Source: Amphiscolops sp. MND2022 (Eukaryota). Taken from it: a stretch of DNA of 64,000 bases. The stretch spans positions 27,964,001 through 28,028,000 of the forward strand of contig OZ076409.1 in assembly GCA_964187785.1 (NCBI GenBank), written 5' to 3'. Both the position numbers and the translations under genes were made by a program. The notes below the pieces were generated by a model, which saw only the letters and a program-made list of their open reading frames with translations, did no database searches and was not told where the DNA came from. The stretch's first letter is position 1; each line of letters starts with the position of its first letter. This document shows positions 7,207 to 46,351 of this stretch, piece by piece.

Positions 7207-10200
7207 TACACCATCGAAGACCCCCCAAATAGGTATGAAGAAGATTTTTTCACAGAGTGTAATGAGGAACCAACTCAAGACTGGCAACGTCGCTGGAACG
7301 TTGGCATGATCCTCCGACACAATGCCAGACACCCAGACGATCCAACGCCACTACCCCAATGGATAACTGAATCACCGGACAACTATGCAACACTCAAGAG
7401 ACCCTTGCCCGAATCAAAAACTGAGCGTATCTACATTTACGATAGGGACTACAGATGCGATCCTTGGGACGAACCAACCATTTATGATACTAACAAACTC
7501 TCCTTCAAAATACAAGTCTCAAATCCCCAAGCACAATCCACAGAAATTATGGACCTACCATCACCACCATCGCCAATCTTAAAACGAACAACACCATCCC
7601 CAACAGTACCCGTCACCATCACGTCCACACCGATAGATGCTGAAAATATCATCTGCATCGAAGACAAAACAATATGGCAACAACAACAGCAAGCAGCACG
7701 AGAAAATGTCGACCCTCCAGTAACCTCCCCAAAAATCGCGCCTGTGACAACACTGATGAACGACGACGTAGAAATCACGGAATGTCCCTCAAAATTACCC
7801 GAAGATCTAGATGTCATCAAAGAATTCATACAACATGACAAAAATGACGACTACATTCCGTTAATGTCTTCCATCGCCCTTAAGAAGAAAAAACGAATGC
7901 TTTTTCTACCAGTCGAATTCAACAAGGTCAAAATCGACGCCTTAGTCGACTCAGGTGCGTACATTAACGCTATTAGCGAAAGAGACGCTGAAAAACTCCG
8001 ACAGCACGCTAGCCAATGCATCGTCAATAAAGCACCCCCACCCCCTTTCAAAGTGCAATATGCCAATGCTGAATTAGAACAACCACTCGCCACGTACACC
8101 CTACGTTTCAAAATAGGCGATTACACCTTTGAAGAAACATTCATCATCATGAATCAAACGTCATTTCCTATAATTGGATTAGCGTTCCTACGCAAGCATG
8201 CCGCAATCCTCGACACGGCACAAGGAACCATCGACTTCCCCAAAATCCAAATCACAATGGCGCTCACAGACGAAAGACAAAAATGCAATCCCAAGCCCAT
8301 TATGATAAAGACCGAAGCCAAACACACAATTCCAGCACACTCTACCCGAATCATATACGCAACAATTCCTGTGAGTACTGAACACTCGATAACAGGTACA
8401 ATACAACCCCTACCACAATTCGACGAATGCGCGAAGGTAATAGTAGCCCCAGCGATTACAACAGCCAGAGATAAAAAACTCCCAATTAAAATCGCCAACA
8501 CCACGGATTTCCCATACACAATAGCCACCGACACCAAAATGGCTGAACTGCAAATCCTGAAACCCGAAGAAACGAAGATGATCCGCCCAGTTGACATTGC
8601 CGCCCTGAATCTCCTCAATGAACATGACGATGTGGTCACGTACATCAACGCACTAATGCAAATAGAACGGCCCGAAGACAATGAAGAAAAATTCTGGTTT
8701 CCGACCCCAGAACACCCAGGCAATGAACAAGAACATTCGCCAATACAAAAGCGTATCTTGAAAGAATTGCGAGACCTTGCTGAACTAGAAAAACTTGACC
8801 CAACCGAAAACGAAGAGTCTCGCAACAAATTCCTATCAATGTTCAAATGGACAGACTCACTAATTGCGGGCAAAGATCGTGAGAACCTTGAGGACACCAT
8901 CGTCGAATTCAACGACATCTTCGCTCGACACCGACTAGATATCGGGATGAATACACAGTTCAAAGTCAGCCTAACACCACAGGATGACAAACCAGTCTAC
9001 ACACAGAGCTTACCTGTCCCGATCAACCTCAAAGAAGACCTAACAGTGGAACTGGCACTGATGCACCGTTACGGAATAATCACGACGCTTCCTTTCTCAA
9101 AGTACGCGAGCCCTATCTTTGCGCAACGAAAACCCAACGGCAAACTGAGACTACTGGTGGATCTACGAAAAATCAACGCCCTCATTGCTGATGACTACAT
9201 CAACAACAACCACCCTGTCAGCACCCTCTCAGATGCGGCACAACACCTAGCAGGGAAAAAACTATTCTGCAAGCTTGACTGCTCCCAGGCGTACCACTGC
9301 CTTCAAATGGCAGACCAAAGGTCAGTAGAGTTACTTGCTTTTAATTTTGCTAGTAGGACGTTCGCCTACCGTCGCCTGGCACAAGGACTAAGCAGGGCCC
9401 TATCAGCTTTTTCGAGCTTCATGCGTGAGTATCTGGACTCAGTCATCAAAGCCGACCAATGTGCACAATACGTAGATGACATTGGCATTGCCGCAAACAC
9501 AACGGAACAGCTCATAAAAAACATCAGAGCAGTCTTCAAATGTATTAGAAAAGCAGGACTAAAACTAACCATCGAAAAATGTCACTTTGGAGTAACCCAA
9601 ATCGAATTCCTTGGCCGAACCATCACCCCCGACGGAGTAGCCCCGCAAGATCAAAAAGTCAAAAATTTCCTCTCCAAAGTACGCTTCCCCAAATCCAAAA
9701 AACAAGTTCAAAAATACATTGGCTTCGTTAACTACTACCGCAACTACATACCGCGCTTATCAGAAAAACTCATCGGCATGTACGAACTCCTCAAAGCAGA
9801 CTCCAAGATCAGAATTTCAGAAGAACTTGTCGATAACTTTAAGGAAATCAACGCCAGTTTAGCGGAAGCTTGTGGACTCGCACTAAGACAACCTATACCA
9901 GGAAAACAGTACGTTCTAATGACGGACGCAAGCTTTCGCGCGTCAGGCTACGCTCTCATGATTGAGGAGAACGATGAACGCAAAATACTCTCCAAACGGA
10001 AAACTTTCGCACCAGTAGCGTTCGGATCACGAGTTTTTTCACCTGCACAACTGAAAATGTCTATCTACTGCAAGGAATTCTTAGCAATCTACCATGCATT
10101 CCTCGAATACAGCCACATACTATGGGAAGCAACAATTCCAACCCTGGTCTTAACAGACAACCGCTCAGTAACGAGATTCTTCCAAACCAAAACGACACCC

Positions 10201-12604: not shown

Positions 12605-15600
12605 TCAACAGTTTTTGGGCACCTTCTTAGGCTTTGACTGACTACCAGAGCCATCATCATCAGCACCTCGCACAACTTTCTTTCTTCCTTTAGACGAACC
12701 GGCTCCATCACCCGAATTACCACCGGCGTTTTTCTGCGGCTTCCCTTTAGACGAATTAGTAGCAGACTTAGATCCCGACTTTGTTCCGTCATTACTTGAC
12801 TTACTGCCACCAGACTTCACAGAAACAAAACTTGAAGGACCTGTACATTGCTTTTTCCGCTGGATCACAGAACTCAACGAACCACTCGAGCCAGCTGTAT
12901 CGCCACTATCAGATAGCCGGGATATCCGATTTGCATTGTTGTATTCCACATAACGGGCATCGAAGCTTTTCCGGTGCTCTGCAAGGAAAGCAGCAAATAA
13001 GGAACTATACTTCGCAACAAAGGCATCCACATCCTCTCCGCAAAAATCTGTCCACATACTGAAGTCAGACGCTCCAAAGAATCTACCAGCATCTGCGATG
13101 GCCTTCTTCACAACTGCAAGCGTCTGATCACTGAAGAAAGACTGATGCGAATACCCTTCGCTCAATATATAAGACTGCACCAGTTGCACACAGCTCTGAA
13201 AGTCTGCAACACTTAATGCAAACCCAGATAAGTCCAGAGACACGGCAGGATAGCGCGAGACGGACACTCCCGCGACAAGACAACACAACTTGAACACTCG
13301 GAGCAAATGTGGTCGCGACAAGAAACCAACATCACGGAGCAGATACGGCACCACATTCGCGATGTCACCAGCAGACTGCCCTGACGAAGAATGATATCCA
13401 CGCTTTTCCACAATGAAACTTGCATGCTCCTCCAAAGCCGCACTACTTTCGTCCACACTCAGCGAACCACAGGATACAAGAGTACGGCACAAATCCGCAA
13501 ATAGACTAAAAACGGCCACATCATCGCCTTCCAGCATCAACTCTGGGCAGAAGCTACACATTCCCTTAGCAACAACAGAACGTGCATATGTGCTTTCCAG
13601 TAGAATAATGATCAGACGATCAACAAACTGACGACAATGAAGCCGGAAAGCCACATACTCTTTCGTCTTGCCTGCGGATAACTGTTGCCCCAAGTCATGA
13701 TTAGAGAGGAAAGAATCACACGGAACAACAGCGAAATTCCGGACCTTCGCGACGTCCATGTAACGCTCCCAAGCATGAATTTCAGGAAGACCACTGGTGC
13801 TGCGAGTTTTCAAGAGCAGGCAATACACAAAATTGCAAAACTCGCCATAAGCGCGGAAAGCATAATCTGCCTGATCCTGTCGTAATCTGGGGCAATTGTT
13901 GTAGACTAAAACATACACCATGATTCGTATACAACAGAAGAACAACCCTACCCCAACACACAAAAGAGGAAGACAGGAAAGAACAGTCAATAATACGAAC
14001 AAATACGCAGTCAACAACAATCAAAAACAATCCATCAACTCAAAAAGAAACACTCACAAGTATCAAGGATCACTTTTAGCAGACTGAACCGATACGTTAT
14101 CATATTATCGGCAGTTAGCAACCAATCAATCCCCTGGAGCTAAAATACACAACATGATATGACAAAAGCAACACCGCAACTACAGCGGACGGAAGGAACA
14201 ATTTTCACTTACCCGTTCAGCCTTGTCTTTAGCCTCAGGGTTACCAGTACATCGAACAAATGGACGAATTGAAGGCCACAACTCGATCAGATCCGATAGT
14301 ACTTCCCGCAAATCAGTGAATTCCACGTGGCCCTGACGAACACTTTTACAAAGGATGGTCCTCTCCTCCATCCAGGCCTCGTAAATAGCAGTTTTCAAAC
14401 GTAGCACAGTACAATCCACCAGGGAAGTCACCTCCATCATACTGAACACGTCCTGATAGGCTTGCCGGATACAACGAATCAGCATTTCACTGGTGAAGGG
14501 CTGGTACGACACAAAGACGCGACTGTCAGTGCGAGTGTCACTCAAGACACGGACTAAGGACGGACTTCCACCGACTACAGCCAAAGGCAATTTCCCAGAC
14601 GGTAAACTACAGACGACTCGTGCCAAGGGCAGCAACTCTGGTTTTGGCACACGTTGCAGCAACGACTCACATCCGACACACACCTTCTTCAAATAGTTGT
14701 CTTCCCAGAAGAGAACGAAACAACGTTCTACCTCCGTATCTTTTTCGTACTGCAAAGAATACTCCCGAAATTGCCCAATGTTCTTGAACATCACACGCAG
14801 CACTCGGGGAACAAGGCCTTGACACAACACGGACTGAAACAAACACCCAAATCAAAAGAAGAAGGAAGAGAAAATAAAAAACAACACCGGAGAACGAACC
14901 CCACAACAGTACATCTTTGTGGTCACCTAACGGCTTACAAGAAACGGAGCAAATACGACATAACAGAACATCACCCACTAAATGTACCAAACATACAAAA
15001 TACTAACCACAGTCTCTGAACGACTCCACTGTAGAGAGAATTCCGGATCCCGACCGCCCAGAGACGCAAGGAAGTAGCCCCACAAACGACGAACCAACGT
15101 GAAATCACCGCCACTGCGTAACACGTCGCTCAAGCTTGAAACGAGAGTCATCAGTGGCACCTTTGAAGAAGTCTTTGAATGTTTGGGCAACATGTCCTCA
15201 GGGAAAGGAAACTCCCCGCCCAAATCCACGAAGGGCCGCGAAAGGAAGTCGTCCCTCTGATGGGCACTCAGCTCCATGGGCTCCATTAGCTTGTTGAACA
15301 CAGGGAGACCCATGTGCACACGATATGTGACGTCCTGCTCCCAGTGTTTCTTTGACTCAAAATGACGAACAAACTCAGCTGACCCTTTTGAGCCCATCTT
15401 TACGTCTCTTCTGCAAATACGACAATAGAAGAGCTTGGCACTTCCACACTCCGAACCCGTCACGAAATCAGCAAATAACGGATTCAGGGATAACATCCGA
15501 CGATGCAACAACTTCCGACTGCTGTACTTTTTCGTCTTCGGGCGCTCAAGGTGACTCTCCACTTTCTCAACGAGCTCGCTAAAGCCTACAATACGAACAA

Positions 15601-16686
15601 AACCAATCAAACAAATGTAGCACCCAAAACAAACGTCGCCGCAACGTACAACACACCATTCCAACAAGAGGCCAATCACAAATAAACAACTCACCTGTCT
15701 GTATCTGCCGAACAGTACGCTCCTCTACCGTCGAAGCCAACTGACGACCCAGCTGCATCACTTCGGGTGACACGGGAGTTGCCGAGAATGACACGTCTTC
15801 CGCCCCACTCCAACCACTCAAGGTAGCATCAACGTCTGCGGCCCGTGTTGTCCTTTTCAATTTCGGAGACGACTCCATGAATCTTACACTCGTCTTCCGG
15901 AATGGAAACACTTTCGAACCTACAACACAAGAGTGATAAGAAATGGAAACAGAAACCAACAAGTTGAAAACCAGAGCCGCATGTATAAAAAAAAAAAAAA
16001 AAACAACAACAACAACAAAAGAAACCAATCACACAAACACACAACTTACAGACTGGCGTATCCTCTTCGTCTGCAGTCCTTTCTTCCCCTGTGGAGGTGG
16101 TAGCAGCCTCACCTTCATGAGGCTCCACACTGACATCGAAATCGCCCGGAACTACTTCGGACAAATCAGGAGGAACTGCTGGGGAAACATCAACGCCCGG
16201 AACTACTTCGGACAAACCAGGTGGAGCTGTAGAAGAAACATCAACACCCGGAACTACTGAAGATCCAGTAGTAGGATTAGCAGGAAGCAATGTTGTCAAA
16301 ACATCATTGATGGATTGCTCAGGAACCAACACTGAAGACACCGGAGGCAACTTCAAAGAAGTACCCAGCAAAGATAACCCCACGGAAGTAGCAGAGGTCC
16401 CACCCGTAGTGGTAGCGGAAACAACAGCCAAGGAAGTTCCAGGTTGAGTTACTGAAAATCAAGATCTGGTTCAGACGCGTCAGAGTTACGGGTAAGACTA
16501 TAAAAGGCTGATCACCGAAACAAAAATAGTCCTATTACCCAAGAAGTCAGAAAGATTTTACCAACCTGAAGAAGTAACTATAACTTCCGTTTCCGAGGGA
16601 TAAGCGTCGTCTTCAGTGAAGCAGAAGTTAGTCTCATGCCCACTGAGAAAACCAGAGACATCAGGAGGAACAGCGTTTTCACTCAT
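12605..16686 (-). CDS. Spliced antisense accessory gene of element A, 7 exons, about 1109 aa, BED-like zinc finger plus hAT-transposase-like body. Exons: 16686-16566, 16451-16050, 15919-15695, 15585-15008, 14833-14213, 14139-14058, 13905-12605
   Basis: Six GT-AG introns (donors GTTGGT, GTAAGT, GTGAGT, GTTAGT, GTAAGT, GTGAGT; T-rich acceptors) with phases 1,1,1,0,0,1 join five separate ORF-track entries plus two small exons into one 3330-nt stop-free frame. Contains CRIC-x16-H-x5-H. Confidence 0.85.
16145..16257 (-). repeat. 51-bp in-frame tandem repeat (about 2.2 copies) in exon 2 of the antisense gene
   Basis: cccggaactac recurs at 16145, 16196 and 16247; encodes VVPGVDVS...PPxLSE repeats. 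Confidence 0.85.
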
Positions 16687-16719
16687 GGCCAAAGGGACAA
16701 TAGCGATTACCAACGGAAT

Positions 16720-17230: not shown

Positions 17231-17282
17231 TTTGCCAACAAGAAAAATTCTTGAAATAAACCTATCTGAAATTTTCAACAAA

Positions 17283-18188
17283 ATGAGCGGATACAGCTTG
17301 GTCATTGATATCTCTTCTGATGAAGAAAACAATCGCACGAGTACTCCGCTGAAAACACTGCCCCTGAATACAATAGGAACGCTAAGTGACTCCTCAGTCG
17401 AAGTTTACCGTGGGAGTGACGCCGATTTAGAATCTACCTTTAGTTCCGATAGCTCCCCGAAGAAATGTGGGCCCACCCCCAAAAAGAAAAAGAAGTTCGG
17501 GCGAGTTACGTTCAACCTGCCGACAGCTAATTCGGACACAGATGACTACTACGAAGAACCACCTTCCCCGCAAGAACAGTACTCTTGGGCAGAAACCGCG
17601 TCCACTCCGAAGAGTAAAATTCCCTTGCTGGGAAATGAAAGAGTCCCGAATACGGTCAGGCTGAATGACTTAAATGAACCCCCGCTAGCAGATCTGGACG
17701 CCCTATACAACTTAGATTTAGAAGACCGTCAGTTCACCGCATCCGCCAGTCGTGGCCGTGGTCTGAAAGCAATGGAATGCCCCAGACAGCCTTCATTCTC
17801 GCCCCGCAGTAAGGAAAACGCTCCCCCTACGGAGGGAAAAGGAAAATGCGACTGCACATTGAGCAACTCGAGCAAGCCAAATGGGCCACCCGAATTTTGT
17901 CCTGCTGTGTGGGCACAAATAGAAAAGGAAAGTCGCGAAATGGAAGAAGAAGAAAAGCTCACGGCCAAAATGAAGGAGGGCAGAGGTCTTGCTCGCGGCA
18001 GACGACTACACAACGGGCGCCCCCCAATCATTATTCGAAAAGAAATCCCACACTGCAACGCTCTACCCTTGTCTTTCGGTTCAAGAGGGGCCCTGTCACG
18101 ACCCGCTCCCGGTCGTAATTTCTATTGCTGCAGCGGAATACCAGGCTTTGGAAGAGGCCGAGGACAAGGCCGAGGTAAACTTTACTAA
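17283..18188 (+). CDS. Extra sense ORF3 of element A (301 aa from the ATG; low complexity, basic NLS-like motif, RG-rich tail); function unknown
   Basis: Long intact ORF (frame open from 17232) with PKKKKKFGR, acidic Ser-rich tracts and GFGRGRGQGRG. Reads through the PPT and ends 95 nt inside the 3' LTR. Confidence 0.6.
   Translation: MSGYSLVIDISSDEENNRTSTPLKTLPLNTIGTLSDSSVEVYRGSDADLESTFSSDSSPKKCGPTPKKKKKFGRVTFNLPTANSDTDDYYEEPPSPQEQYSWAETASTPKSKIPLLGNERVPNTVRLNDLNEPPLADLDALYNLDLEDRQFTASASRGRGLKAMECPRQPSFSPRSKENAPPTEGKGKCDCTLSNSSKPNGPPEFCPAVWAQIEKESREMEEEEKLTAKMKEGRGLARGRRLHNGRPPIIIRKEIPHCNALPLSFGSRGALSRPAPGRNFYCCSGIPGFGRGRGQGRGKLY
18083..18093 (+). promoter_or_regulatory. Short polypurine-tract-like sequence AAGAGGGGccc
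   Basis: Lies immediately upstream of the 3' LTR start (TGT at 18094). Confidence 0.6.
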
Positions 18189-20438
18189 ACTAATTTATTC
18201 TTAAACTAATCTAAAATTCTACTTACAGTACAGCTAAATTGATTGCAGATATTTTTCCGAATACAGAATCTAACGTAAGCGTTACGGAATATTTTCAGAA
18301 ATGACTCTAAACAAGCTAAAACTTCCGGTCTAATGTTTTCACACGCAACGCCGTTTTATTTCCGGTCTCATCTTCTGAATTTTCCATTTCGGTCTAAATA
18401 CTAAATAATCTTGTAAATGGGATCATTTCTTCTGCTCCACACTGAAATGAAAACATTCAAAACAATATTCAACTCCGAGATCCCAACGGAGTCCATACAA
18501 TCTAAAATGAAAGAACATACAGAAATATGGTGGAAATGTATTCCAATATTAAAGTAGTTGTTAAATATCCACTTAATACCGCATCCAAGTGGTTTTAAGT
18601 AAATGTTTACAACGTTATGACAGCGTCACTCAACTAGGTTGGTAACGAGCGTTTCTATTTTTACGGACCAATAGCGTCGCTTGTTGACAGAATTATTTGT
18701 GCCGGTACTAGTTAGATTAAGCTTGGTTGCTAATAGCAACGCTTACTAGCTAAGAGAAAAGAATAGAACCGCCTACGCTTTCCGTTTCCACTCCGCTTAC
18801 TACTGCTGCTCAGCCAAGAGCAATCTCAATGCGTACGGAACACTTACGGAACGGATTGTAAAATTGTATTCTGCTGCTCAGCTATAGGTAATCTTAATAC
18901 GTAGCATCTACGGAGCGGATTGTAAAATCACAAATGAGAAATACTGCTTCAAACGAAATCCAAACGAAGCTTTTTAAATCGATGCTTTTGGAAGATTTAA
19001 GAGTTATGGTTTTTACACAAGGGAAACTGTACTGTAGGGAAGAATGATAGAAAATTGCAATGATGATTTTTACGTTCTGGTTTTTATGTTTTATACTATC
19101 ATCATGATAAATCACTAAAAACACGTTGACATTACGCCTTACTCAGTTCCTCATTAAGGGAACAAATCTACTCGATTTACTACAGCATTTAAAATATCTT
19201 AATGATAATCCTAATATGGGACGTAAGGTCAACGTCAATTCATCGGTTTCAAGTCAATAGTGATAGTAACATTTCTATGATAATGACAATCGAGCTAGTG
19301 ACCAGACTTCGATCATGTTTTGATAAATTTCATGATTATTGTGCAAAGTGTTGAAGTTGCTTTCCATTTATTATGAATATGTTGCGCTCATCTTTGTTGC
19401 ATTACGTTAAAGTCCCGTTTGGGCTTAGTTTTGTGTTTGATGTAAATGATATAGCATACCATTAGTAGGTAATTCATATGTTTGAATTTGGGATTATAAT
19501 TTCAGCATCGTTTGTTCCTTTATACCAAATTTCTACGTTTTTCCTCCGCTTCCAAGTTGATTCAATCCGTCGCGATTACGTCGCCATTTTCGAGTGTCAT
19601 TCTTTTGCTTCGAAATTTAACTTCCCAAGTTGAGAATTGACTAATTGTTCATGCCGGCGTGCCTACGCTGATGGAAATGCAAGCTAGACTTTTGTTTTAC
19701 CGCAATTTTGAGACTCAAACAGGAAGTGAGATTGCATGAACAAAAATGATTTCAACAAATTTTACGGAACGCTGACGTAACTAGGAATTTTGATGCCTGT
19801 TTTTACGACGCGGGACTGAAATGATATGAATCATTAGCGCTTTTTGTTGAACAAACCCAATTTTTGTGATACCTAGGAATTTTTGGGTGAGGAACAAATG
19901 ATGCTGAGAAAGTATAAATATGTAATACATACATGTAAACACACAGTTTTTGAATTGCCTTGTAACAATTAGTTCTGTTCCGTTACTATAACGTATCTAA
20001 AGATCTTTGAAGAATTCAACCTTTCCAAAGATACTTTCTCTCTCTCTCTCTCAATTAAAATGACAACTAGAAGCCAGAAAAGGAAAGCGGTAGCTGAGTT
20101 GGTCTCTGGTGATTTCGAAACCTCTGTAACCGAAAATCTTCCGCCTGAAGCTCTTGTAGCTAGTTCCAGCAAAATCCCTAGGATAGAATCTGAGGACTTA
20201 ACTGAGATAAAAACGTCACTAAGAAAGGAAATTATGTCTGATCTGACTAAAATACTTGCAGAAAATCAAAAGGAAATGCTCAAGCTGATAGCACCTTTAA
20301 ACAAAAAACAGACTGTCCATATGAATACTCAAGACTCGGACTCTGAACCTGAGAACGTCTCCGTCGCAAGAACGTCCACCCCCGTCAAAACCCACACTGC
20401 GACTAACTCTAAAACAACACCAGTAAATAGTCGTAACA
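18094..20438 (+). repeat. 3' LTR of element A (2345 bp)
   Basis: By eye it differs from the 5' LTR by about 3 substitutions and one CT microsatellite unit. Confidence 0.97.
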
Positions 20439-30975: not shown

Positions 30976-32001
30976 TGTCATGCCTGATGCATGAAAATAC
31001 AAACAATGATGTGAATAACCATCCTACAAACTAAAGATGAGAAATAAACCGGCAAACAGCGAACGAATATTAACAAAGAAAAAGAATGTGGCGCACCAAA
31101 CCAAACCACATCACAAAACTTGAACTCGAATTTGCCAAATGCATCATTTTTATTCAATTCCCAAATAACTTTGCTCTATTCACCCATATTTCATACATTT
31201 ACTACATATACTCTGTAAACCAAATTCGCGACTGTTTAGTTGACTGTGAAAGTAATGTGGGTGATGCACCATCATTAGATTTTCGTTCCAATATTATTAG
31301 TCCTGTGATCAATATATACAGTAACCGTTTACTCATATGAAGCTAGTAGTGAAACCACATCATAATACCAAGTATTGAGTCATGTAACCATAGCAATGCA
31401 ATTGTCTTTTATTTCTATGCTACGACAAAATTGCGCAATTACTGATCAGGTTGTGAATGAACGCAGTGATATGATTGGTTGATGTGGTCACGTGACAAAC
31501 GTCGCAATAATTGACACCAGACAAAATAGTACAAGCAGTAGATTTTGTAAAGTTACAACGTGCAGTTGCTTACCACATCAGTATCTTGATATCATAATTT
31601 TCGACATTTCCAACTTATTACTTTCAATAATCAAAAATTTTAAACTCCTACGCTTTTCTTTATGGTCAACACTAGATCTAGAACAGCCAGAAATACTCAT
31701 TAGAATATGAACGGAACATACAAGTACAGTGATGTTGAAAACGAAAGTAGTATTCCCGAAGTTCTCACGAGAGAACAAATGAATGACTTCGACAACGGAA
31801 ATCTATTGGACTACAGAAATGAATCAGAACACCATACAGTAAACCAACGGTTCAATCAAATGAACAAGCAGACTAGCGACTTAACAAACCTAGTTCTCGC
31901 GTTAACTGAAAAAATATCCTCCAACGATAAGATATCCTCTAGCAATAGAGGAGGGAACGACCTTAACACGGTCTCAATCGGACATGAGACCCGTTCCGAC
32001 A
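30976..32001 (+). repeat. 5' LTR of element B (1026 bp)
   Basis: Diverged direct repeat of 45325-46351 (several percent mismatches by eye). Confidence 0.95.
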
Positions 32002-33193
32002 TAGTGACAGGAGCTCCAACGACCAACCATCTGCCGAATCCACTACGTCAATCTACCTCGCAATACCCTCAGCCATCTGCCCACCAGTTCGATGACATCG
32101 TCACTGAAATCCACCACCTGAGGGACACCATGACGGATACAGTACAACATCCGAAAATATTGCAGACACAAGTTCCACTTTTCCAAGGAAATCGGGAAAA
32201 ATACAATGAGTTTGAGCACCTACTGCGCAATCATCTCAGGCCACACCAGCACAAATTGTCAGAAGAGCAGAAACTGACATACTTCCAAAGCCTGCTGCGC
32301 GACGACGCCATTGAATTTTGGCAATCGCTGAAGATGACAAACCACATCACACTAGCGCAAGTCTTGCGTTACTTCAAGAAGGAGTACGCAAAAGAAGACT
32401 TGAAAGAAGTGGCCAACGACAAGTTTGACCAGATGCACTACAACCCTTCAGCTGAGACCTTTAATGACTTCCTCAACAAGTTCAAAAATGTAGCGAAACA
32501 AGCATTTGGGGACAAGTCCAGTGACATAACAGAGACATTTCTGTTCACCAAACTCCCCGTTCAAATGCAAAACGAATTGGCCTTGGCAGGCAAACACGAC
32601 GCATCGATGGAAGAAATCCGGACATTTGTGCAACGCAGATGTCAATATGCGCAGCTCATCCCAAACACAACCAGTGCGCAACCGTTCAACCAGATAAGCG
32701 CACCCCAGCCAAATGTAGCCGCGCCTCAGGCATCTAACGCCCAACACCAGCGAAACAGGGAGACAAAGCGAAAATTCGATGGCCAATGCCGCCACTGCGG
32801 AATGCACGGACACAAGTGGGCAGAATGCAGAAAACGCCTCCGGGAGGAAGCACAAGCCAAACCTCCGAGCCCAACCCCGCATAAACTAGCCCAACCCACC
32901 CAAACTCAGGAGACCAGGCCAAAATACAACTCCAAACTTGTGTGCCAAATTTGTGGCAAGGTGGGACATTCCGCTCGAGACTGCTACTACAGGAATACGA
33001 CGACGTCAGCCTACCGAAGCGTCCCGTACCCTATGCAGTCGACCGAGGAAAACAGACAATTCAGAAGAGATTTCAAACAGACCAACAGCAGGGTCTACAA
33101 CGCAAACGAACTGTCCCACACCACCAACGATGAGACCGACAATGCTGAGGAAACGGAACGACACGATGACTAGAAGATCCAAAAAACTTCTAA
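31662..33193 (+). pseudogene. gag: gag of element B; starts inside the LTR, with a nonsense TAG at codon 14
   Basis: ATG 31662 (MVNTRSRTARN) is in frame with ORF 31707-33173, and the 3' LTR has TCG at the TAG position. Knuckles CRHCGMHGHKWAEC and CQICGKVGHSARDC; AAAAAAC at 33181-33187. Confidence 0.88.
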
Positions 33194-36100
33194 AGCCACG
33201 TCATCCTCCTCAAACATAAAAAAGTGCGCTGCTAACCAACAACAACAAACTACTCCTCAGACTCGACTATATACTGGAAGCCACACGGGGTGGCAGTCCC
33301 GTCCTTCAACTTACACTAAAGAGACTACAAACTTTGTCATCACAAGACACTCAACTGACAACTACACAATCAAGACGAAGGAGACCAAGCGAAGACCTGA
33401 AGTCCACAACATACAACGGTTGAATCCAGATAGCACACCGCCTGACCAACCGAATGAAGAGAAGCGAACCACATCCCCAAAACCAAACAATCCACAAAAG
33501 AAACAGAAGTACGAAATACGCCAGTTGAGTGCCACCTTGCCAACTCAACAAAAAAGACAAGATGCTATACGTACCACTTCAGTTCCGCGAATATGAAAAC
33601 TTCGGCCTACTCGATACTGGAGCAATCCAAAGTGCTCTCTCAGAAGCAGAACTCCGCCGCATCCTAACAGCCCATCCAGCCGCCCTTCCCCAGGAACACC
33701 CTGCCCCGGAGTTCAAAGTGCAGAATGCAAATGGAAACATCGTTCCAGTGAGGAACAAGTCCTGCTACGATTCTTCATCGCCGGAAAACTCTTTGAAGAG
33801 ACTTTCATGGTCCTCCCGACAATGGGGAACATACTTATTGGAATGTCGTTCTTCAAAAAAACTCCGTAACGCTGGACTTAGCCAACAACAATGTCACATT
33901 CCCGGACATCACCCTCCAACTAGATCAGTCAACGGGAAATTCAAAAACAAACTACTCGAAGTAAGGACAACTCAGAAAATTGTGATCCAACCCAACAAAC
34001 AAGTGTTCGTCCCAGTGGTGATTGAACGCGATCTAGGCGACATCACTGGCACTGTCGAAGGGCTACCAGCCTTTGAAAGGCTCTCACACCTGTTGGTGTC
34101 TCCAGCTCTCAGCGAGACCCAGGAGGGTCGGACTCATGTCCAGATCACAAACCCACTCGCCTACCAAATTAAAATCAATGTGGGTACACCTGTAGCATCG
34201 TTCAAAATATTGACACCGAAACAAGCCAACAACCTTCAGCCGATGACCAATCACCAGCTAAACTTGATTTCACAGTACCCAGACGATGCTGAAGCTGTCT
34301 TGAATCAAATCTTCCAGGATCCGACTGCAATGTCAGACAGACGATGGTACCCTACCCTTGAGACATGCCACGACCCGTAAAAACTCAACAAGATTAAAAA
34401 ACGCATCTACGATGAAATCTTCAAACTCAGGGCAGAGGAGAAATTGGATCCAACAGCGAGCGAAGAACAACGACTTGAATTTCTGGCAAATTTTTAGTGG
34501 GAACACTCAATACTGAACCCTCACGAGAAGCAAAAAATTGAGGCTCTATTGGTCAAGTACCATGACATCTTCGCCAGACATAGACGGGGCATTGGGATCA
34601 ACACCGAATTCAAGATAAAGTTGACTCCCAAACACGACGAACCAGTCTATGCCCAAAGCTTACCCACGCCGACGAACCTGAAGGACGACTTACTGGTTGA
34701 ATTGGCGTTGATGCAGGAGTATGGCGTAATCACAACATTGCCGTGCAGCAAGTACTCATCACCCATCTTCGCGCAACGCAAGCCGAATGGGAATCTTACA
34801 ATCCTCGTAGACCTCAGAAGAATCAATCACTTACTGAAGAACAACCATCCTTACTCAGCACAACCATCCAGTGACGACGATGGCAGACGCAGCGCAGCAC
34901 ATGGCAGGAAAGCGATACTTCTGCAAACTGGACTGTTCACAAGCATACCACAGCTTGCAGATGGCAGACGAACAGTCAGTCCAGTTACTCGCTTTCAGTT
35001 TCGAAAGTAGGACGTTCGCCTACCTCAGGCTAGCCCAAGGACTGAACCGATCCTTATCAGCCTTCAACAGTACTGTTCGAGAGTACTTGGACCCCTTGGT
35101 CAAGGCCGACAAATGTGTCCAATACGTCGACGACATCGGCATTGCAGCCAACAATGTCGAAGAGCTAGTCGACAACATTGAGTCTGTGTTCATCAAGATC
35201 AAACAAGCTAGCCTGAAACTGTCAATGGCTAAATGCGCCTTCGGAGACCCCGAGATAGAATTTCTGGGACGAAACATCACCTCCAAGGGAGTTGCTCCCA
35301 TCGAAGTAAAAATTGACAAATTCTTGAAAAAGATCAAACTACCGACGTCTGTGAAGTCTTTAAAACGGTACATTGGATTCGTCCAGTTCTACCGCCAATA
35401 CATCCCATGCCTAGTCGAAAAACTTGTACCACTCAACAGACTATTGCAGAAAGACGTCGAATTCGAATTAACTCAAGTCCATAAAGACGACATGTTTGAC
35501 ATCAATGAGAACCTCGCAAATGCAGCCAAGATGTCCCTGCGATTACCACTTCCGGACAAACAGCTAGTGATCATGTGCGATGCTAGCGAGCATGCAGCTG
35601 GATACGCTCTCTTGATCGAGGATTACTCTGAAACGAATGGGGCCAGGTTTACTGAGGGCCAGATGTCACTCACGATGAATGCAAAGGAGTTCGTGGCTAT
35701 GCACTTCGCCTTTGATGAGTTTGCCCATATCTTGTGGGGAGTGAAGAAGCCGACAATTGTCATGTCTGACAACAAAGCCCTCACAAGATTCTTCCAGTCA
35801 AAACGAATACCCTCGAAGCTGCGGAACTACTGCGACCAGGCCCTCTAATTCGACATCGTCCTGGCCCATGTAACTGGTGTCGAAAACCCAGCAGCCGACT
35901 ACCTGTCCAGAATCGACATCCACCCGAAGGACAGAATCCACCTCAAAATACATGATGAGGTACCAGTCTTCAAAGTCGAAATTGATCTGGCATCAAAAAC
36001 GCCTAAGCAGGATGTTGAGGAGGAAGAATACATTCCAGACAAAACAGATGTGCCTGACACAACAACACTAAACCCAACAATGCAGTCACTCCTGGCGATG

Positions 36101-38081
36101 TTCCCTCAATGGTGTCACGAAGACGACGAACAGTACCGTAGACGCATTGACGACATCAAAATCCAGGTGCAACCATTTGTGACGCCCTCTGACCCAACAC
36201 TGTTCTTCACTCGATTCTACCTACGGAACCAGGTTCACACGGTATATCAGGTATGCCCTTCGGGGAATTCAGAAATTGTTAAGGCTCAAGGCGAAAACAG
36301 TGACGTTCAACGGGTAATTAGGATCCTTACTGTCCAAGAAACTCCTCCGAACCAAGTGAATTTGCAAGTATCTTTTTCCAAAAACTTTTCAAGAACCGTA
36401 AAAGACTTGAAGTAGTGAACAACGTGTTAAACAGGCAGTTTTTTGACAACACGGGAAACTTAGCTTACCGACAAATTGTAGTTCCTCCAGAAACTACGGA
36501 AGCCATAATCAGGACGATGCATGGCGACCCCATGCCGGGACACCCTGAAGCATCCAAAATGTTAGGTGAACTAAAGAAAAGGTACTACATCCCGAAGTTA
36601 GCTGAAAAAAATCAAGAGTTTGTAAACAACTGCCAAGACTGTATTAAAGCGAAACCTGTAAAACCTAACACCGTGACGCCACCACTCGAACCAATCTACG
36701 ACCCTTGCAACGGTCCTGAAGATGTCCTGGAAGTTGACTTCGTTGGTGAGTTACCGCGATCTAATGGGTACTCACACATTCTGACAGCCTGTGACTATTT
36801 CTAGCGATATCTGTTTGCCATTCCGATCCGTAAACCTGATACGAAATCCGTCGTTGACGCCCTGCTAGACATTTTCACGAAACATGCATACGTGCCGAAA
36901 CACATCATCACTGACAAAGGCTCTGCCTTCACATCACAAGTCATACCAGAAATGATGGACAAAGTCGGGATCCAAGTCTCCCACGCGACAATCAAACATG
37001 CCCAAACTGTCGGAATGATCGAAAGGTCGCATCAACGTTTGAACAAGATTCTGAAAATAAACGTCTCCGCAGACCGCCCACAATGGGACCGATACGTCAA
37101 TCTCGCTGTGATGGCGCACAATCCGACTTACCACCAAACTCTGAAACGTTCATCGACTGAAGTTTTCCACGGCCGCGTGCCATACAACGCACTAGACCTA
37201 AAGTTTGGCAACCCTCTCAGTCCACCGAGGAATGCCACTGATACAGAGTCGTTAGTCGACAATCTGAATGCCAAATTCAAAGAAACTCATACCAATATAA
37301 TCCGAGCCTTCCATAAGTACAAAGCGTACTACGATCGAAAAGCACAAGCATCACAATCAAAAGTAAACGACTTTGTCTTTTTATTGAATCCTAAAATAAG
37401 TACGCAATCAGAAAAAATCCCTTTTAATTCCTTCAAAAGGGAAGGACCTTAAAAAGTTGTTAAGGTCTTGACACAATCGAACTATATCGTCAGAAAAGTC
37501 GGTACCTTCAGAACGCAGTTTGTACATAGAATGCGGCTCCGCCATTCGTACCACATGACCCGATTGAAGACATACACGACGATGCAGCCCGACACTATAG
37601 TGACCCCGACGCAATTGACGATCAGTCAATATTCAACAAAAATCTGCCTGCACCCGAACCATCACCGCCGGCTGAAAACACATTTGAACTCGACACAAAC
37701 GAAACTGAAACAATCAATCCTGAGCATGGAACAATTTATTATGAACACAAACGGGTTCATGAGGTACCACCTCTGTAAAACCCGCTGCCTGAAACCGTCC
37801 ACAACGACCGTACACACCGAACTGAAACTGAAAATCAATCCGGCGAAATAGACACACCGCCACCTGATCACGAGTCTGAACAACTAATTCAGTCAAATAA
37901 TGATGCGGCATCAACCACATCATCTGCCGAAACGTCTCAACCGATCACACGAATTAATATTACCAGATATAGCCTTCGCGAGGCACCTGTGCCAAAAACG
38001 TTTGATAACTTCCTTGTTCATGAACTGCAAGCAATGCCCGCACTTTTTAAATTCCTGCAACGCAAATCCGCAAGCCAATAG
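33181..38081 (+). pseudogene. pol: pol of element B with multiple frameshifts and stops
   Basis: LLDTGA, QYVDD, CDASE, HGDP..GH/CQDC and TDKGSAF are spread over at least 7 ORF fragments. Confidence 0.93.
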
Positions 38082-39186: not shown

Positions 39187-42100
39187 CTACTCATATGATG
39201 AGTCTATTTGGAAACGACTCTGTCGTTTCTTCCCGCTCACGACCACTTCACCCGCAGAATCGCTATCGGAACTAACAACATTAGCCAGTTGTAAACTTTT
39301 ATTTCCTCGGGGGATCCCCCCTGTTCGACGCCCAACTGACTGCTTAGAAAGGGAACCACCACGACTAGCTGAAGACATATCACAACTGGCACCTCTAACA
39401 CTCTTTGCAGCAGACTTTTTACTCTGGGAGACCAACGGAGCCGAAGTCGAAACGCCAATGCCCAAAGCGACATCGCTCTGTCTCCGTGCACTCTTATTTG
39501 ATTTAGCGCTAACCATAGCAACGGGACTACTCCGTCGTCCAGCACGTGGGGGACTCAGCACCTCCACGAGGTCCAATTGTGCCAGGACACTAGAACGATA
39601 ATCGTCAATAGGCACCGTCGATGTAGACACTTGCATATCATTGGTAGAGCAAACACGCAGTAGTCCAGTCAGCGATTGACGGGTATGACCCGCGAACATC
39701 TTCGAAAACCAGCTTCTGACAAGATGCAAACTAGAACGAAGAGTATCAACAGGCATAGCAGCATCAACTTCATCAGTGAAATTAGGGTTGTAAGACCCAA
39801 CTACCGTAAGTCCAAACAAAACGTTCAGTACTAATAACAGTTCTTGACACCGAGACCAATAAGGGTATGAAAACCACATTGAAATAACATCATCCATTAC
39901 AGGTACCCCCTCTATTAGCATCCATTTGTTTTTGAAAAATTGAGTCACCTCCCGATACTGTCTCAGGGTAACAGCAGCTATGTCGTCGCTCATCAAGTTG
40001 TAACGATAAAGAGTATCACAGGTCCCAACTAGCGCTAGTGCAGCAGTGTCTGCAAAATAGTCTAGTGCATACGCGCAAATAGTCCAGAACGCTGAGGGGA
40101 TCCAGTCCAACGAACTCAGTAAGAAAGTGCTTTCTGACGAGGTCAAAAAGCCACATTTGTGTAACACGGCCCACGACCAATGGATAAATGACTCCAATCG
40201 AAGCCGCTAGCGCGTATCCAATACGGGTATCTGACTCAGTGCTGTACAGTCTAACAGTGGACGCATGAGGCAGACTCAGCAACACCGGGACAGCATTGTC
40301 GACCATTCTCTTCTCCCAGCTACTCCCGCCAACCACCGCACCAAGAACGACCGTCTCCACAACGTAGTCACAAACCACATGGTACTCGCACAGCCAATCT
40401 GCCCCATGCCGTCTGATGCTGACACTCACGCTTTTGCCACGAGCTATTAGGTCATCTAACTGCTCCACAACGAATCGGTACAGTCCATAGAGAACCAGAA
40501 TGTGTCAAAACGAAAAACGACCTCATTCTACACATTTTTACATACAGCTGCCTAGTTACATACACAACCATATCACGATAACAAATTGACAATCCTCACA
40601 CACAAAACAAAAACTAACATGAGCTAATGTAGGTACCTGACATCGTGGGTATGTTAAAGTGCGGCACTCAACCCGTAGTTCCGTATTCATGGCGTCCCGC
40701 CATGACTCCACGATCCGTATTACGTCTTTGAATGTAGTAGTGCTACAGAAACTAAAACTACTCACAAACTGGCAAACCAACACGCTCTCCTCACGCAATG
40801 CAGGCTTCCCTCCAGCAGCTGCTTCAGCCTCCTCGATTGCAATCCGTTTATCCACGGTGAGACTAAGTTTTGACTCCAGGAACACTGGAGGTTCCGACAT
40901 CCGAGCTCGCCGAATACGTCTGTCTCCTTCCGCAGACACTGGTCGACAAGCTTTATCAAGTAACGGCATTTGCATCATAATGCGATACTTCTGCTCCAGA
41001 CGGGTGTGTTCCACACCCCGCCAATGCACCCACAGGGAAGACAAACCACGTCCGGCAATGCTGAGGTCAACTTTACTCAACAGGCATCGGGCATGACCGT
41101 CGATTACACATTTATGTCGGGGAAAACCAACGAAGTTCCCGGCAACTCCTGATACAAAATACGAAGGCTTCAGTGTTTTCACCTTCTTAACTCGAGCTGA
41201 AACAAGCAAAACATTCGCATTGCCACACACAAAAAAACCTTCTGCAACAAAAACTAACAGTTACTCCCGCCTAGGACTTCCAAAAGAAAAAATGTGTGTG
41301 CCTTGAGCGTAGGATAACCACTAAAACCCCTCCCATGATCTTTTGAGAGTTCCTAACCAGGTTTAGCAGATGTGGTGGGCCCTCCATCCTTCGACACCAC
41401 TGACCGCAAGCCACCAAAAGCAGTCGGTACTTCCTAGATCTGTCTGACTCATGCAGCACCGTTCAGGGCAAATGGACTCCCAGGAACCTCTACTGGGCCT
41501 GGCGATACAGCAACCGCTGGCTGGATTTGAACTGCCGCAACCCCACAAGACGGAGTGGTATTATCCAGCTGTCCCATGGCAGTCTGCACCTTCTTTGCAA
41601 ATTCCTCCAGAGATTGCACACCAGCGGTACTTAAATCTCCCAATTTCGCTTCTATCACTGCTTTGACAGTTCCGGACAGTTCCTTTGACGTCCGTTGCAG
41701 AAGAATTCCCATTTCTGCTTTCGTTACGGGTGCACCAATAGTAGTACGTAAAAACAGTCAATTTTCTACCGCAAGTCATTTACACTCACCAACTTACGGG
41801 TCCCGGCACCCCTCCCTACACCACACGATGATCCGAGATTGATTACCTACAATGTACAAAGAACGACCACTTACCCAATGGATCGGCGAGGTAGTTACTG
41901 AAACGGTCCTCGACAGCAGCCAGAAGCGCACGAAGCACATGCACGACGCTCACCAACAGCAACTCTTCTAGAACAAATTAAAAAGGATGACGCCCTTGAA
42001 ACCACATCAGTTACCCAGAGCATTGAGATCCCGGGAAGAACAAAAGCTATCATGTTAATATTGCCCCAAACAGCGTATTAGCATAAGATAATTCAAAATG

Positions 42101-42490
42101 CTCTGATGACGGAAGAACAACTCTCCAATCGAATAACGCAAAAAATCACAGGTGATACCCGAAACACGGACACATTCACCTACACGCCAAGATTTGAAAC
42201 CAATAAGAAAAATGAAAATACGAGTACTTACGGAATTCACTGGATAAGGCTATTTCCAGTAGAGTATTAGCTGCCTCGATATTGCTATCTGTCACTTTGC
42301 GCGAGAAACGACAGCATGCAGCAGAACTCTCATCCCTCAACACTTCATCAACAGCAGCAGGTAACTCACTGCCCATCGATGAGAAACTAAACTGTTCTAG
42401 TTTTTCAACGCACCTTCTGCTGTCAGAACAACAGCGGCGACTTCAGATTCTGCTTGGACACGCCCCTCTCCTGACGATGGAAACATACGA
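39187..42490 (-). pseudogene. Decayed spliced antisense accessory gene of element B, homolog of 12605-16686 (5' end approximate)
   Basis: Exon 41196-40637 (acceptor tttcag, donor CAG|GTACCT) encodes a zinc-finger region alignable to exon 4 of A. Further GTAAGT/GTGAGT donors near 41790 and at 42231; Ser/Lys-rich C-terminal tail as in A. Confidence 0.7.
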
Positions 42491-45400
42491 ATAACAACAA
42501 TCAATTCTGAAATAAACAAGTAGAGGCTTAAAAATGAAAACACACAGTCGTTTGCGATTTACTGAGGTTCAAAGTATCTGCTAACGATCATGTGGACTGA
42601 TCAACCACATTATCTATGCGAAGAAACTACCCTGAAATTACAAAGGGACTAACTAATTCCCGAAATTCAACTACCATCCTTTTCCAAAACCAAAAAGGGA
42701 TAGCGCCTCCCCGAAAAATGTTCAAAATCGCAACTCGAATCCCTGGCTTAACCTACTCTTAGGCCATTTGATCATTAGTACCATTACTCAGTAAGCCGCG
42801 GCCGAACTGAACTGCTGAAGAAGCTCACAAATAAAAATAGCTTAGAAAATTTTGCTTCTCGTATTTGGCATCGACGAAGATTTGTTTACAAAGCGCACGA
42901 TGTTCCACTGCATTCACTTCCAAACAATTACCGAATAAGCCGAGTAATTATTTTACGCTGCCACGTTAGATTAATTTCCGGCAAATTCACTGTTATTCTC
43001 ACTCTCTTCCTGCAAGCGACGCGCACGATTGGATGACGTGGCTATCCTCGCCATATCGACTCTATATTTACTCTTTACCGAAGTGGAACATTCAACGCGC
43101 GGCTAACATTTCGTCCTCTCACTTGCAATTTCGAGACGAAGTAACAATCAATCTGACTATTTCCAGCCACGAAGTCAACTCGCCGCTGCCAATGTGGTTG
43201 CTATGACAACATCACTGCTATCTCAAATCAACGATTACCGCCGAGTTCAACTCTGCTAATTGGAATGCAGCGTCCAACCTATCTCACAATTAGAGGAAAC
43301 TATACACCATCCCCGCCACATGTTCTTTTTCCAAAAAGACCCGGAGTGTCCTGCCTGATGCATGAAAATACAAACAATGATGTGGATAACCATCCTACAT
43401 ACCAAAGATGAGAATAAAACCGGCAAACAGCGAACGAAGATTAACAAAGCACAAGAATGTGGTGAACCAAACCACATCACAAAACTTCAACTCGAATTTG
43501 CCAAATGCATCATTTTTCTTCAATTCCCAAATAACTTTGCTCTATTCACCAATATTTCATACATTTACTACATATACTCTGTAAACCAAATTCGCGACAT
43601 CAGCATACTTAAATCTCCCAATTTCGCTTCTATCACTGCTTTGACAGTTCCGGACAGTTCCTTTGACGTCCGTTGCAGTAGAATTCCCATTTCTGCTTTC
43701 GTTACGGGTGCACCAATAGTAGTACGTAAAAACAGTCAATTTTCTACCGCAAGTCATTTACACTCACCAACTTACGGGTCCCGGCACCCCTCCCTACACC
43801 ACACGATGATCCGAGATTGATTACCTACAATGTACAGAGAACGACCACTTACCCAATGGATCGGCGAGGTAGTTACTGAAACGGTCCTCGACAGCAGCCA
43901 GAAGCGCACGAAGCACATGCACGACGCTCACCAACAGCAACTCTTCTAGAACAAATTAAAAAGGATGACGCCCTTGAAACCACATCAGTTACCCAGAGCA
44001 TTGAGATCCCGGGAAGAACAAAAGCTATCATGTTAATATTGCCCCAAACAGCGTATTAGCATAAGATAATTCAAAATGCTCTGATGACGGAAGAACAACT
44101 CTCCAATCGAATAACGCAAAAAATCACAGGTGATACCCGAAACACGGACACATTCACCTACACGCCAAGATTTGAAACCAATAAGAAAAATGAAAATACG
44201 AGTACTTACGGAATTCACTGGATAAGGCTATTTCCAGTAGAGTATTAGCTGCCTCGATATTGCTATCTGTCACTTTGCGCGAGAAACGACAACATGCAGC
44301 AGAACTCTCATCCCTCAACACTTCATCAACAGCAGCAGGTAACTCACTGCCCATCGATGAGAAACTAAACTGTTCTAGTTTTTCAACGCACCTTCTGCTG
44401 CCAGAACAACAGCGGCGACTTCAGATTCTGCTTGGACACGCCCCTCTCCTGACGATGAGAACATACGAATAACAACAATCAATTCTGAAATAAACAAGTA
44501 GAGGCTTAAAAATGAAAACACACAGTCGTTTGCAATTTACTGAGGTTCAAAGTATCTGCTAACGATCATGTGGACTGATCAACCACATTATCTATGCGAA
44601 GAAACTACCCTGAAATTACAAAGGGACTAACTAATTCCCGAAATTCAACTACCATCCTTTTCCAAAACCAAAAAGGGATAGCGCCTCCCCGAAAAATGTT
44701 CAAAATCGCAACTCGAATCCCTGGCTTAACCTACTCTTAGGCCATTTGATCATTAGTACCATTACTCAGTAAGCCGCGGCCGAACTGAACTGCTGAAGAA
44801 GCTCACAAATAAAAATAGCTTAGAAAATTTTGCTTCTCGTATTTGGCATCGACGAAGATTTGTTTACAAAGCGCACGATGTTCCACTGCATTCACTTCCA
44901 AACAATTACCGAATAAGCCGAGTAATTATTTTACGCTGCCACGTTAGATTAATTTCCGGCAAATTCACTGTTATTCTCACTCTCTTCCTGCAAGCGACGC
45001 GCACGATTGGATGACGTGGCTATCCTCGCCATATCGACTCTATATTTACTCTTTACCGAAGTGGAACATTCAACGCGCGGCTAACATTTCGTCCTCTCAC
45101 TTGCAATTTCGAGACGAAGTAACAATCAATCTGACTATTTCCAGCCACGAAGTCAACTCGCCGCTGCCAATGTGGTTGCTATGACAACATCACTGCTATC
45201 TCAAATCAACGAATACCGCCGAGTTCAACTCTGCTAATTGGAATGCAGCGTCCAACCTATCTCACAATTAGAGGAAACTATACACCATCCCCGCCACATG
45301 TTCTTTTTCCAAAAAGACCCGGAGTGTCATGCCTGATGCATGAAAATACAAACAATGATGTGGATAACCATCCTACATACCAAAGATGAGAATAAAACCG

Positions 45401-45578
45401 GCAAACAGCGAACGAAGATTAACAAAGCACAAGAATGTGGTGAACCAAACCACATCACAAAACTTGAACTCGAATTTGCCAAATGCATTATTTTTCTTCA
45501 ATTCCCAAATAACTTTGCTCTATTCACCCATATTTCATACATTTACTACATATACTCTGTAAACCAAATTCGCGACAT
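41628..45578 (+). repeat. Near-identical tandem duplication (41628-43600 and 43606-45578, period 1978 bp) including the PPT and a partial third LTR (43347-43600)
   Basis: Duplicated ORFs are offset by 1978; junction ...ttcgcgacat|cagca|tacttaaatc... Confidence 0.95.
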
Positions 45579-46351
45579 TTTAGTTGGCTGTGAAAGTAAT
45601 GTGGATGATGCACCATCATTAGATTTTCGTTCCAATAATAATAGTCCTGTGATCAATATATACAGTATCAATTTACTCATATGATGCTAGTAGTGTAACC
45701 ACATCATAAAACCAAGTATTGGGTCATGTAACCATAGCTACGCAATTGCATTTTATTTCTATGCTACGACAAAATTGCGCAATTACTAACCAGGGTGTGG
45801 ATGAACGCGGTGATATGATTGGTTGAAGTGGTCACATGACAAACGTCGCCATAATTGACAGCAGACAATATATTAAAACCAGTAGATTTTGTAAAGTTAC
45901 AACGTGCAGTTGCTTACCATATCAGTATCTTGATATCATAAATTTCGACATTTCCAACTTATTACTTTCAATAATCAATAAAACTTTAAACTCCTACGCT
46001 TTCATTTATGGTCAACACTAGATCTAGAACAGCCAGAAATACTCATTCGAATATGAACGGAACAGACAGGTACAGCGATGCTGAAAGCGAAAGTAGTATT
46101 CTCGAAGTTCTCACGAGAGAACAAATGAATGAGTTCGACAACGGAAAATTATTGGACTACAGAAATGAATCAGAACACCATACAGTAAACCAACGGTTCA
46201 ATGAAATGAACAAGCAGATTAGCGAGTTAACAAAACTAGTTCTCGCGTTAACTGAAAAAATATCCTCCAACGATAAGATATCCTCTAGCAATAGAGAAGG
46301 GAACGACCTTAACACGGTCTCAATCGGACATGAATGAGACCCGTTCCGACA
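45325..46351 (+). repeat. 3' LTR of element B (1027 bp), containing the Gag N-terminal ORF 46008-46337
   Basis: Preceded by purine-rich aaaaagacccggag and followed by the TSD ACCAC. Confidence 0.95.

What the first reader, a model, noticed from the sequence alone, without database searches (positions are those of the whole stretch)
39187..42490. A second, divergent Gypsy family carries a homologous antisense gene with conserved intron phases
Seen: A exon 4 CRICRRDVKMGSKGSAEFVRHFESKKHWEQDVTYRVHMGLPVFNKLMEP aligns without gaps to B CLLSKVDLSIAGRGLSSLWVHWRGVEHTRLEQKYRIMMQMPLLDKACRP. Both exons are of similar size (578 and 560 nt), begin in phase 1 and end in phase 0. Both genes sit antisense downstream of pol and end in a Ser/Lys-rich tail, although the LTRs show no similarity I can see. 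Inference: this is an old, inherited module of a whole Gypsy clade, diverging much faster than pol as expected for a host-conflict protein, and not a one-off captured fragment.
Basis: partly seen in the sequence, partly recalled or inferred. Interest (0 to 1): 0.88.

Follow-up and report, generated by a model that had tools for sequence, protein, structure and literature searches.

The report
Retrotransposon carries swappable dead-transposase gene
A large group of Gypsy jumping genes in this genome carries, on the opposite strand, an intron-containing gene that probably descends from the cutting enzyme of an unrelated DNA transposon, has lost its cutting residues, and is exchanged between near-identical elements like a cassette.

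Summary
The antisense gene is real and shared, but the window's B copy is a pseudogene (about 930 nt deleted, frameshift, stop). Intact B copies elsewhere have seven exons with phases 1,1,1,0,0,1, as in A. The A and B proteins are homologous (hhalign 97.5%, E 6e-12, 599 columns, 19% identity); a third clade, C, also has the gene. Introns 4 and 6 align exactly in A, B and C; intron 5 only in B and C. All 27 gene-picked loci had Gypsy pol on the other strand; 4 of 4 pol-picked loci had the gene.

New here: (1) The protein is probably a dead hAT transposase: BED-like finger (E 2.6e-6), collinear downstream segments above 80 of 80 shuffles, catalytic residues not kept. Structure support is weak. 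(2) It is under purifying selection (dN/dS 0.06-0.14). Its fast divergence reflects exchange: elements 93-98% identical in LTR and pol carry cassettes with saturated dS and conflicting trees.

Best guess: a nuclear DNA-binding regulator that helps the element escape silencing (untested; no RNA data). Antisense extra genes are known in plant and fungal Gypsy, and this scan noted them in fungi; my searches found no hAT-derived or swapped case.

The parts
30976..32001 (+). Element B 5' LTR (TG...CA), preceded by 5-bp target duplication ACCAC
   Evidence: 93% identical to the 3' LTR
31704..38081 (+). Element B gag and broken pol (PR, RT, RH, IN in several frames)
   Evidence: ORFs; gag Pfam; RT 67% to A; IN tree
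42232..42486 (-). B antisense gene exon 1 (out of frame in this copy), phase-1 donor
   Evidence: alignment to intact B copies
41875..41967 (-). B exon 2 (42 nt shorter than in intact L073), phase 1 to 1
41359..41747 (-). B exon 3 (non-canonical acceptor, in-frame stop near 41450)
40637..41196 (-). B exon 4: C-x2-C-x16-H-x5-H BED-like finger and following helices; phase 1 to 0
40073..40501 (-). B exon 5, truncated by the deletion; predicted RNase H-like strands without catalytic acids
39187..40072 (-). B exon 7 remnant with Ser/Lys/Arg-rich tail; exon 6 and the start of exon 7 are missing
41618..45578 (.). 1,978-bp tandem duplication (41618-43600 / 43597-45578, 99.2%) covering exons 1-2, part of exon 3 and the first 250 bp of the LTR
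45325..46351 (+). Element B 3' LTR followed by ACCAC
3785..6131 (+). Element A 5' LTR (99.8% to 3' LTR), target duplication AATGA
5753..12444 (+). Element A gag (starts inside the LTR) and open 1,774-codon pol, order PR-RT-RH-IN
16566..16686 (-). A antisense gene exon 1
16050..16451 (-). A exon 2 (Ser/Thr/Pro-rich, 51-nt repeats)
15695..15919 (-). A exon 3
15008..15585 (-). A exon 4 with the BED-like finger (C304, C307, H324, H330 of the 1,109-aa protein; invariant in 13 of 13 intact A, B, C copies)
14213..14833 (-). A exon 5 (degenerate RNase H-like region and the helix matching the hAT RW segment)
14058..14139 (-). A exon 6
12605..13905 (-). A exon 7 (helical region and Ser/Lys-rich tail)
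18094..20438 (+). Element A 3' LTR followed by AATGA

Best explanation
An ancestor of these Gypsy clades took up a hAT DNA-transposon gene, in reverse, between pol and the 3' LTR and kept it as an accessory gene. Being antisense, its introns are not spliced from the genomic RNA and so survive reverse transcription (follows from the known retrotransposition cycle). The protein kept the BED-like finger and overall domain order, lost the catalytic residues and gained a low-complexity N-terminus and (in A and B) a basic tail. Most likely it is made from its own antisense promoter, enters the nucleus, binds a motif in its own element and helps it be transcribed despite host silencing, as transposase-derived TnpA does for Spm. 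Old, very different versions of the cassette are exchanged by recombination onto near-identical LTR+pol backbones. Shown: gene model by comparative evidence, homology, linkage, purifying selection, mosaic ancestry. Probable (about 0.8): hAT origin. Inferred only (about 0.5): DNA binding, nuclear role, activation; expression itself is unobserved.
Against: No transcript or junction read was seen. Each hAT segment outside the finger is weak alone (E 0.014-0.5), the B-only chain was beaten by 1 of 80 shuffles, and I chose that hAT subfamily from a recalled motif after seeing the protein. A second hAT subfamily profile (46 sequences) gave nothing; global alignment failed; no PF05699 or other Pfam hit over cut-off in 8 window exons or 63 relatives. 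Both folds are low-confidence (pLDDT 41 and 47); Foldseek has no hit at E<=0.001, Hermes ties with unrelated chains and is not among the 50 rows of the wide search. LTR type does not travel with cassette type, which argues against a tight protein-target co-evolution of the VANC kind. Clade C lacks the basic tail.
Confidence: 0.45

Rival explanations
1. The protein is an antagonist of a host defence protein (piRNA or chromatin silencing). The dead transposase fold is a scaffold; old cassette types persist and are swapped because rare types escape host recognition, including small RNAs against the cassette's own mRNA.
For: Cassette types are swapped independently of the LTR; synonymous sites are saturated between types while the protein is kept; exons 5 and 7 vary more than exon 4 within clades.
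Against: No exon has pN/pS above 1; the finger ligands are invariant in 13 of 13 intact copies, which fits nucleic-acid binding; no host partner is known.
Confidence: 0.25
2. The protein is a repressor or exclusion factor: it limits the element's own activity, or blocks elements with another cassette type, like truncated transposases that act as repressors (recalled: P-element repressor, KP).
For: Loss of catalytic residues with a retained finger; many coexisting types (736 clusters at 50% identity for exon 7).
Against: Families carrying it are abundant and recently active (A LTRs 99.8% identical; dozens of open 1,760-1,775-codon pol frames); nothing tests the sign of regulation.
Confidence: 0.12
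3. The protein acts in the replication cycle rather than on transcription: tethering the integration complex to chromatin or exporting and packaging genomic RNA, like retroviral accessory proteins.
For: Found at 4 of 4 pol-picked loci; weak Pfam echoes of RNA-binding fingers (E 0.2-0.6); the idea is raised for plant antisense ORFs in PMC7264820.
Against: Cassettes 55% identical work with integrases 99-100% identical, so any integrase contact would have to be very tolerant.
Confidence: 0.1
4. Only the finger is BED-like; the rest is an unrelated or unrecognisable captured gene, not a transposase.
For: Negative comparison with a second hAT subfamily, no Pfam or PDB sequence hit for exons 5 and 7, poor folds.
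Against: Collinear non-finger segments exceed 80 of 80 shuffles; length, domain order, helix-three strands-helix prediction and the Hermes alignment all fit a whole transposase.
Confidence: 0.2
5. The region is an independent nested DNA transposon or a neutral passenger.
For: Probable hAT ancestry; cassette history differs from pol within clades; at G000:C8:9435541 only a piece of exon 4 remains inside a Gypsy.
Against: Same place and orientation in 27 of 27 and 4 of 4 loci, no convincing TIR pair, catalytic residues not kept, strong purifying selection, clade-level agreement with the integrase tree.
Confidence: 0.03

Closest known systems
Antisense additional ORFs (aORF-3R) of plant Gypsy: maize Grande gene23, rice RIRE2, Retand TRP28/PF04195
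   Same: [quoted passage not shown]
   Different: Here a six-intron, about 1,100-aa gene with a probable donor. PMC7264820 states that the origin of most such ORFs is unknown and that they lack similarity to other TEs. No PF04195 hit here. Cassette exchange is not mentioned in the passages I saw.
brtn of Boty-like Gypsy elements (Botrytis, Sclerotinia)
   Same: Additional antisense gene at the same position (named in PMC8365987, passages, and PMC7264820).
   Different: Fungal; I did not see the original paper (Zhao 2011) or its sequence, so homology was not tested. Earlier scan notes describe small Cys-cluster proteins in fungal elements, unlike this large protein.
hAT transposases of the CGRTK-motif subfamily (e.g. 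L189, L182, L232; PF05699) and Hermes
   Same: C-x2-C-x16-H-x5-H finger, then helix, first strand, RW-type helix in the same order and similar spacing.
   Different: First catalytic Asp, second Asp, CxxH, RW and the C-terminal Glu motif are not kept in the alignments; no TIRs; carried by a retroelement; intron positions differ from the G000 hAT inspected.
TE-encoded anti-silencing factors: Spm TnpA and VANDAL VANC
   Same: TE-borne accessory regulators; TnpA is reported to derive from a transposase, and catalytic loss recurs in transposase-derived regulators (10.64898/2026.08.24.746577, passages; PMC5735166, abstract).
   Different: Both are in plant DNA transposons and act through DNA demethylation; VANC targets co-vary with the protein, whereas here LTRs do not co-vary with cassette type. 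No sequence homology is claimed.

Membership tests
Ty3/Gypsy LTR retrotransposon (carrier) | pol order PR-RT-RH-IN | tested here: met
   Pfam on A pol
Ty3/Gypsy LTR retrotransposon (carrier) | TG...CA LTRs, PBS and 4-6 bp target duplication | tested here: met
   AATGA (A), ACCAC (B); PBS-like TGGTGACAGGAG in A; primer tRNA not identified
Antisense additional ORF (aORF-3R) | [quoted passage not shown] | tested here: met
   27 of 27 gene-picked and 4 of 4 pol-picked loci; pol-picked sample is clade A only
Antisense additional ORF (aORF-3R) | Maintained by selection | tested here: met
   dN/dS 0.06-0.14
Antisense additional ORF (aORF-3R) | Transcribed from its own antisense promoter and spliced | not testable with these tools
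   no RNA run was listed
hAT transposase | N-terminal BED-type zinc finger | tested here: met
   hhalign 88.6%, E 2.6e-6; ZBED2 E 0.063; ligands invariant in 13 of 13
hAT transposase | RNase H-like catalytic fold with insertion domain | tested here: inconclusive
hAT transposase | DDE triad, CxxH and RW motifs | tested here: not met
   positions invariant in hAT alignment A5 align to Glu/Arg/aliphatic, Gly and other residues in A, B, C; second Asp and final Glu placed by eye
hAT transposase | C-terminal dimerisation domain PF05699 | tested here: not met
   no hit in exon 7 or in 63 relatives
hAT transposon (mobile element) | Own TIRs and 8-bp target duplication | tested here: not met
   no convincing terminal inverted pair around either cassette
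TnpA/VANC-type anti-silencing factor | Binds cognate element and relieves silencing | not testable with these tools
   needs ChIP and knock-down
TnpA/VANC-type anti-silencing factor | Target sequences co-vary with the protein | tested here: not met
   LTR and upstream DNA 90-96% identical between elements with 55-65% identical proteins; a small internal target could still co-vary
env-like gene | Sense orientation and transmembrane segment | tested here: not met
   antisense; highest 19-residue hydropathy 1.4-1.8 in exon 4-7 cores

The most novel reading that the evidence does not exclude
A retrotransposon radiation domesticated a hAT transposase, introns included, as its own counter-silencing regulator, and keeps many ancient versions of it that are swapped between backbones under frequency-dependent conflict with the host: a TE-to-TE domestication and an exchangeable counter-defence cassette in a probably animal genome.
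Probability: 0.33. Interest if true: 0.9.

Novelty: new variant of a known kind. Interest (0 to 1): 0.74.

Why it matters
The origin and job of antisense extra genes in LTR retrotransposons are open questions (PMC7264820). This case names a probable donor, a DNA-transposon enzyme recruited by another class of mobile element, and offers hundreds of natural variants on near-identical backbones, so function can be tested by comparing cassette types. If it counters silencing it would be a rare TE-encoded counter-defence outside plants. If the host is an animal (inferred, not established), a seven-exon accessory gene in Gypsy would also matter for repeat annotation, since such exons look like host genes.

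Full report
Setting. The window holds two full-length Gypsy elements. A (3785-20438) has 99.8% identical LTRs, target duplication AATGA and an open pol; B (30976-46351) has 93% identical LTRs, duplication ACCAC and a broken pol. Their LTRs share nothing by blastn; RT is 67% identical in DNA, and integrase 44% in protein between A and an intact B copy. G000 has 1.07 Gb; the host was not identified. I infer an animal from the genome size and a GPCR-like frame seen by eye at 29464-30027.

Observation. The exon-4 sizes, phases and the 49-residue match are right (11 identities, score 64; best of 150 shuffles 37). In A, seven exons joined at six GT-AG introns give one open frame of 1,109 codons. The window's B copy is a pseudogene: about 930 nt spanning the end of exon 5 to the start of exon 7 and another 108 nt are missing, exon 1 is out of frame, exon 3 has a stop and two acceptors are non-canonical. 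Direct BLASTP between window exons is not significant.

Family. Exon 4 of B and of A each filled the 150 scored rows in G000, down to 64-66% identity (2,342 and 7,875 candidates). Of 20 loci chosen across that range, 20 had RT and integrase on the opposite strand. A chance hit led to a third clade; 7 of 7 loci had integrase in the same arrangement. Picking from the other side, 4 of 4 A-type integrase loci absent from the exon-4 list carried the gene, at 55-62% exon-4 identity. Intact B copies have seven exons with phases 1,1,1,0,0,1, as in A; splice sites are canonical at 113 of 120 (A), 106 of 108 (B) and 42 of 42 (C, exons 4-7 only) mapped positions. Profiles of the spliced exon 4-7 region align A-B at 97.5% (E 6e-12, 599 columns, 19% identity), C-A at 98.1% and C-B at 99.5%. 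Introns 4 and 6 fall in the same alignment columns in all three clades; intron 5 is shared by B and C and lies about 40 codons later in A; intron 3 cannot be aligned exactly. Exon 7 finds 736 clusters at 50% identity; those looked up are unnamed ENA records, so host range is unknown.

Evolution. A, B and C with L309 are separated by long branches in both the integrase and exon-4 trees (A and B one side of a branch in both; C only with L309 in the exon-4 tree), which fits inheritance from one capture. The gene is under purifying selection: dN/dS 0.06-0.14 where dS is measurable, against mostly 0.01-0.25 for pol; pN/pS is 0-0.29 in exons 4-7 and up to 0.74 in exons 2-3 and the tail. Yet elements with almost identical pol carry very different cassettes: L064/L070 RT 99% (dS 0.10), gene 55% (dS above 5); clade C integrases 96-99% (dS 0.02-0.13), genes 60-78% (dS 0.95 to saturated). 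Non-coding flanks and LTRs stay 90-98% identical up to sharp edges near the gene's ends. Informative sites conflict: integrase groups L313+L314 9:0:0, the cassette groups L313+L310 182:41:61 (Fisher p 6e-8); in the A quartet the cassette is star-like, so it shows decoupling rather than a rival tree. Selection on amino acids cannot saturate silent sites, so the simplest reading is recombination of old cassette types onto shared backbones. A strongly raised local mutation rate is not formally excluded for the A quartet.

Mechanism. Antisense orientation explains why six introns persist through reverse transcription. An invariant finger (13 of 13 intact copies), a dead catalytic core and a basic tail suggest a nuclear nucleic-acid-binding regulator. 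Transposase-derived activators of their own elements are reported for Spm TnpA (10.64898/2026.08.24.746577, passages) and VANC is a TE-encoded anti-silencing factor (PMC5735166, abstract). I therefore favour self-activation against silencing (overall 0.45), then antagonism of a host defence protein (0.25), repression or exclusion (0.12) and a replication-cycle role (0.10). That LTRs do not follow cassette type argues for a shared target and a variable host-facing part, and against VANC-like paired evolution. None of this is tested; expression was not observed.

Novelty. Antisense ORFs between pol and the 3' LTR are known in plant and fungal Gypsy, with unknown origin and function (PMC7264820, parts 1-2 of 3; PMC11963269, passages; brtn named in PMC8365987, passages; PMC8220671, passages, adds no case). 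Earlier scan notes report spliced antisense genes in fungal Gypsy, including a seven-exon one, and none in this genome (unchecked AI notes). Eight literature searches (listings only unless stated) showed no hAT-derived or exchanged cassette. Verdict: new variant of a known kind, interest 0.74.

Noticed in passing
window 16452-16565 (A intron 1): About 90% conserved across A subfamilies whose exons are 55-65% alike; it folds so that the donor site pairs with the start of exon 2. None of 36 pairs shows a compensatory change and Rfam has no match. Possible splicing control or a signal on the genomic RNA.
   Followed up: partly
window 42590-42611 and A intron 1: A hairpin with the palindrome TGATCA is conserved upstream of the B gene and inside A intron 1; it could be an RNA dimerisation loop (inference).
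   Followed up: no
window 17196-18188 (+): A 330-codon sense frame between the cassette and the 3' LTR of A, running into the LTR; no Pfam hit; kept in L068 (48%) and in pieces in L064 and L070 (30-59%). A second accessory gene is possible.
   Followed up: partly
window 5753 and about 31710: In both elements gag starts inside the 5' LTR, so the primer-binding site lies within gag; A and B share the PBS-like TGGTGACAGGAG (one mismatch in B) despite unrelated LTRs.
   Followed up: no
window 41618-45578: A 1,978-bp tandem duplication (99.2%) in B, younger than its LTR divergence (7%); real or assembly artefact not tested.
   Followed up: no
G000:C13:16513705-16552043 and G000:C9:54625024-54657196: A-type elements in head-to-tail arrays with about 14-16 kb period.
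   Followed up: no
L310-L315: Clade C exon 7 ends without the Ser/Lys tail, and its upstream region (one long Ser/Pro-rich frame) stays 87-96% identical while exons 4-7 are swapped; exons 1-3 were not modelled.
   Followed up: partly
window 18-2916: Endonuclease plus reverse transcriptase frames of a non-LTR (CR1/L2-like by eye) element, in three frames.
   Followed up: no
window 29464-30027 (+): Frame that looks like part of a rhodopsin-type GPCR by eye, next to an N gap at about 28880-29075.
   Followed up: no
L278-L289, L300-L308: At least three groups of free hAT elements related to the probable donor subfamily in G000, one with an intron inside the finger.
   Followed up: partly
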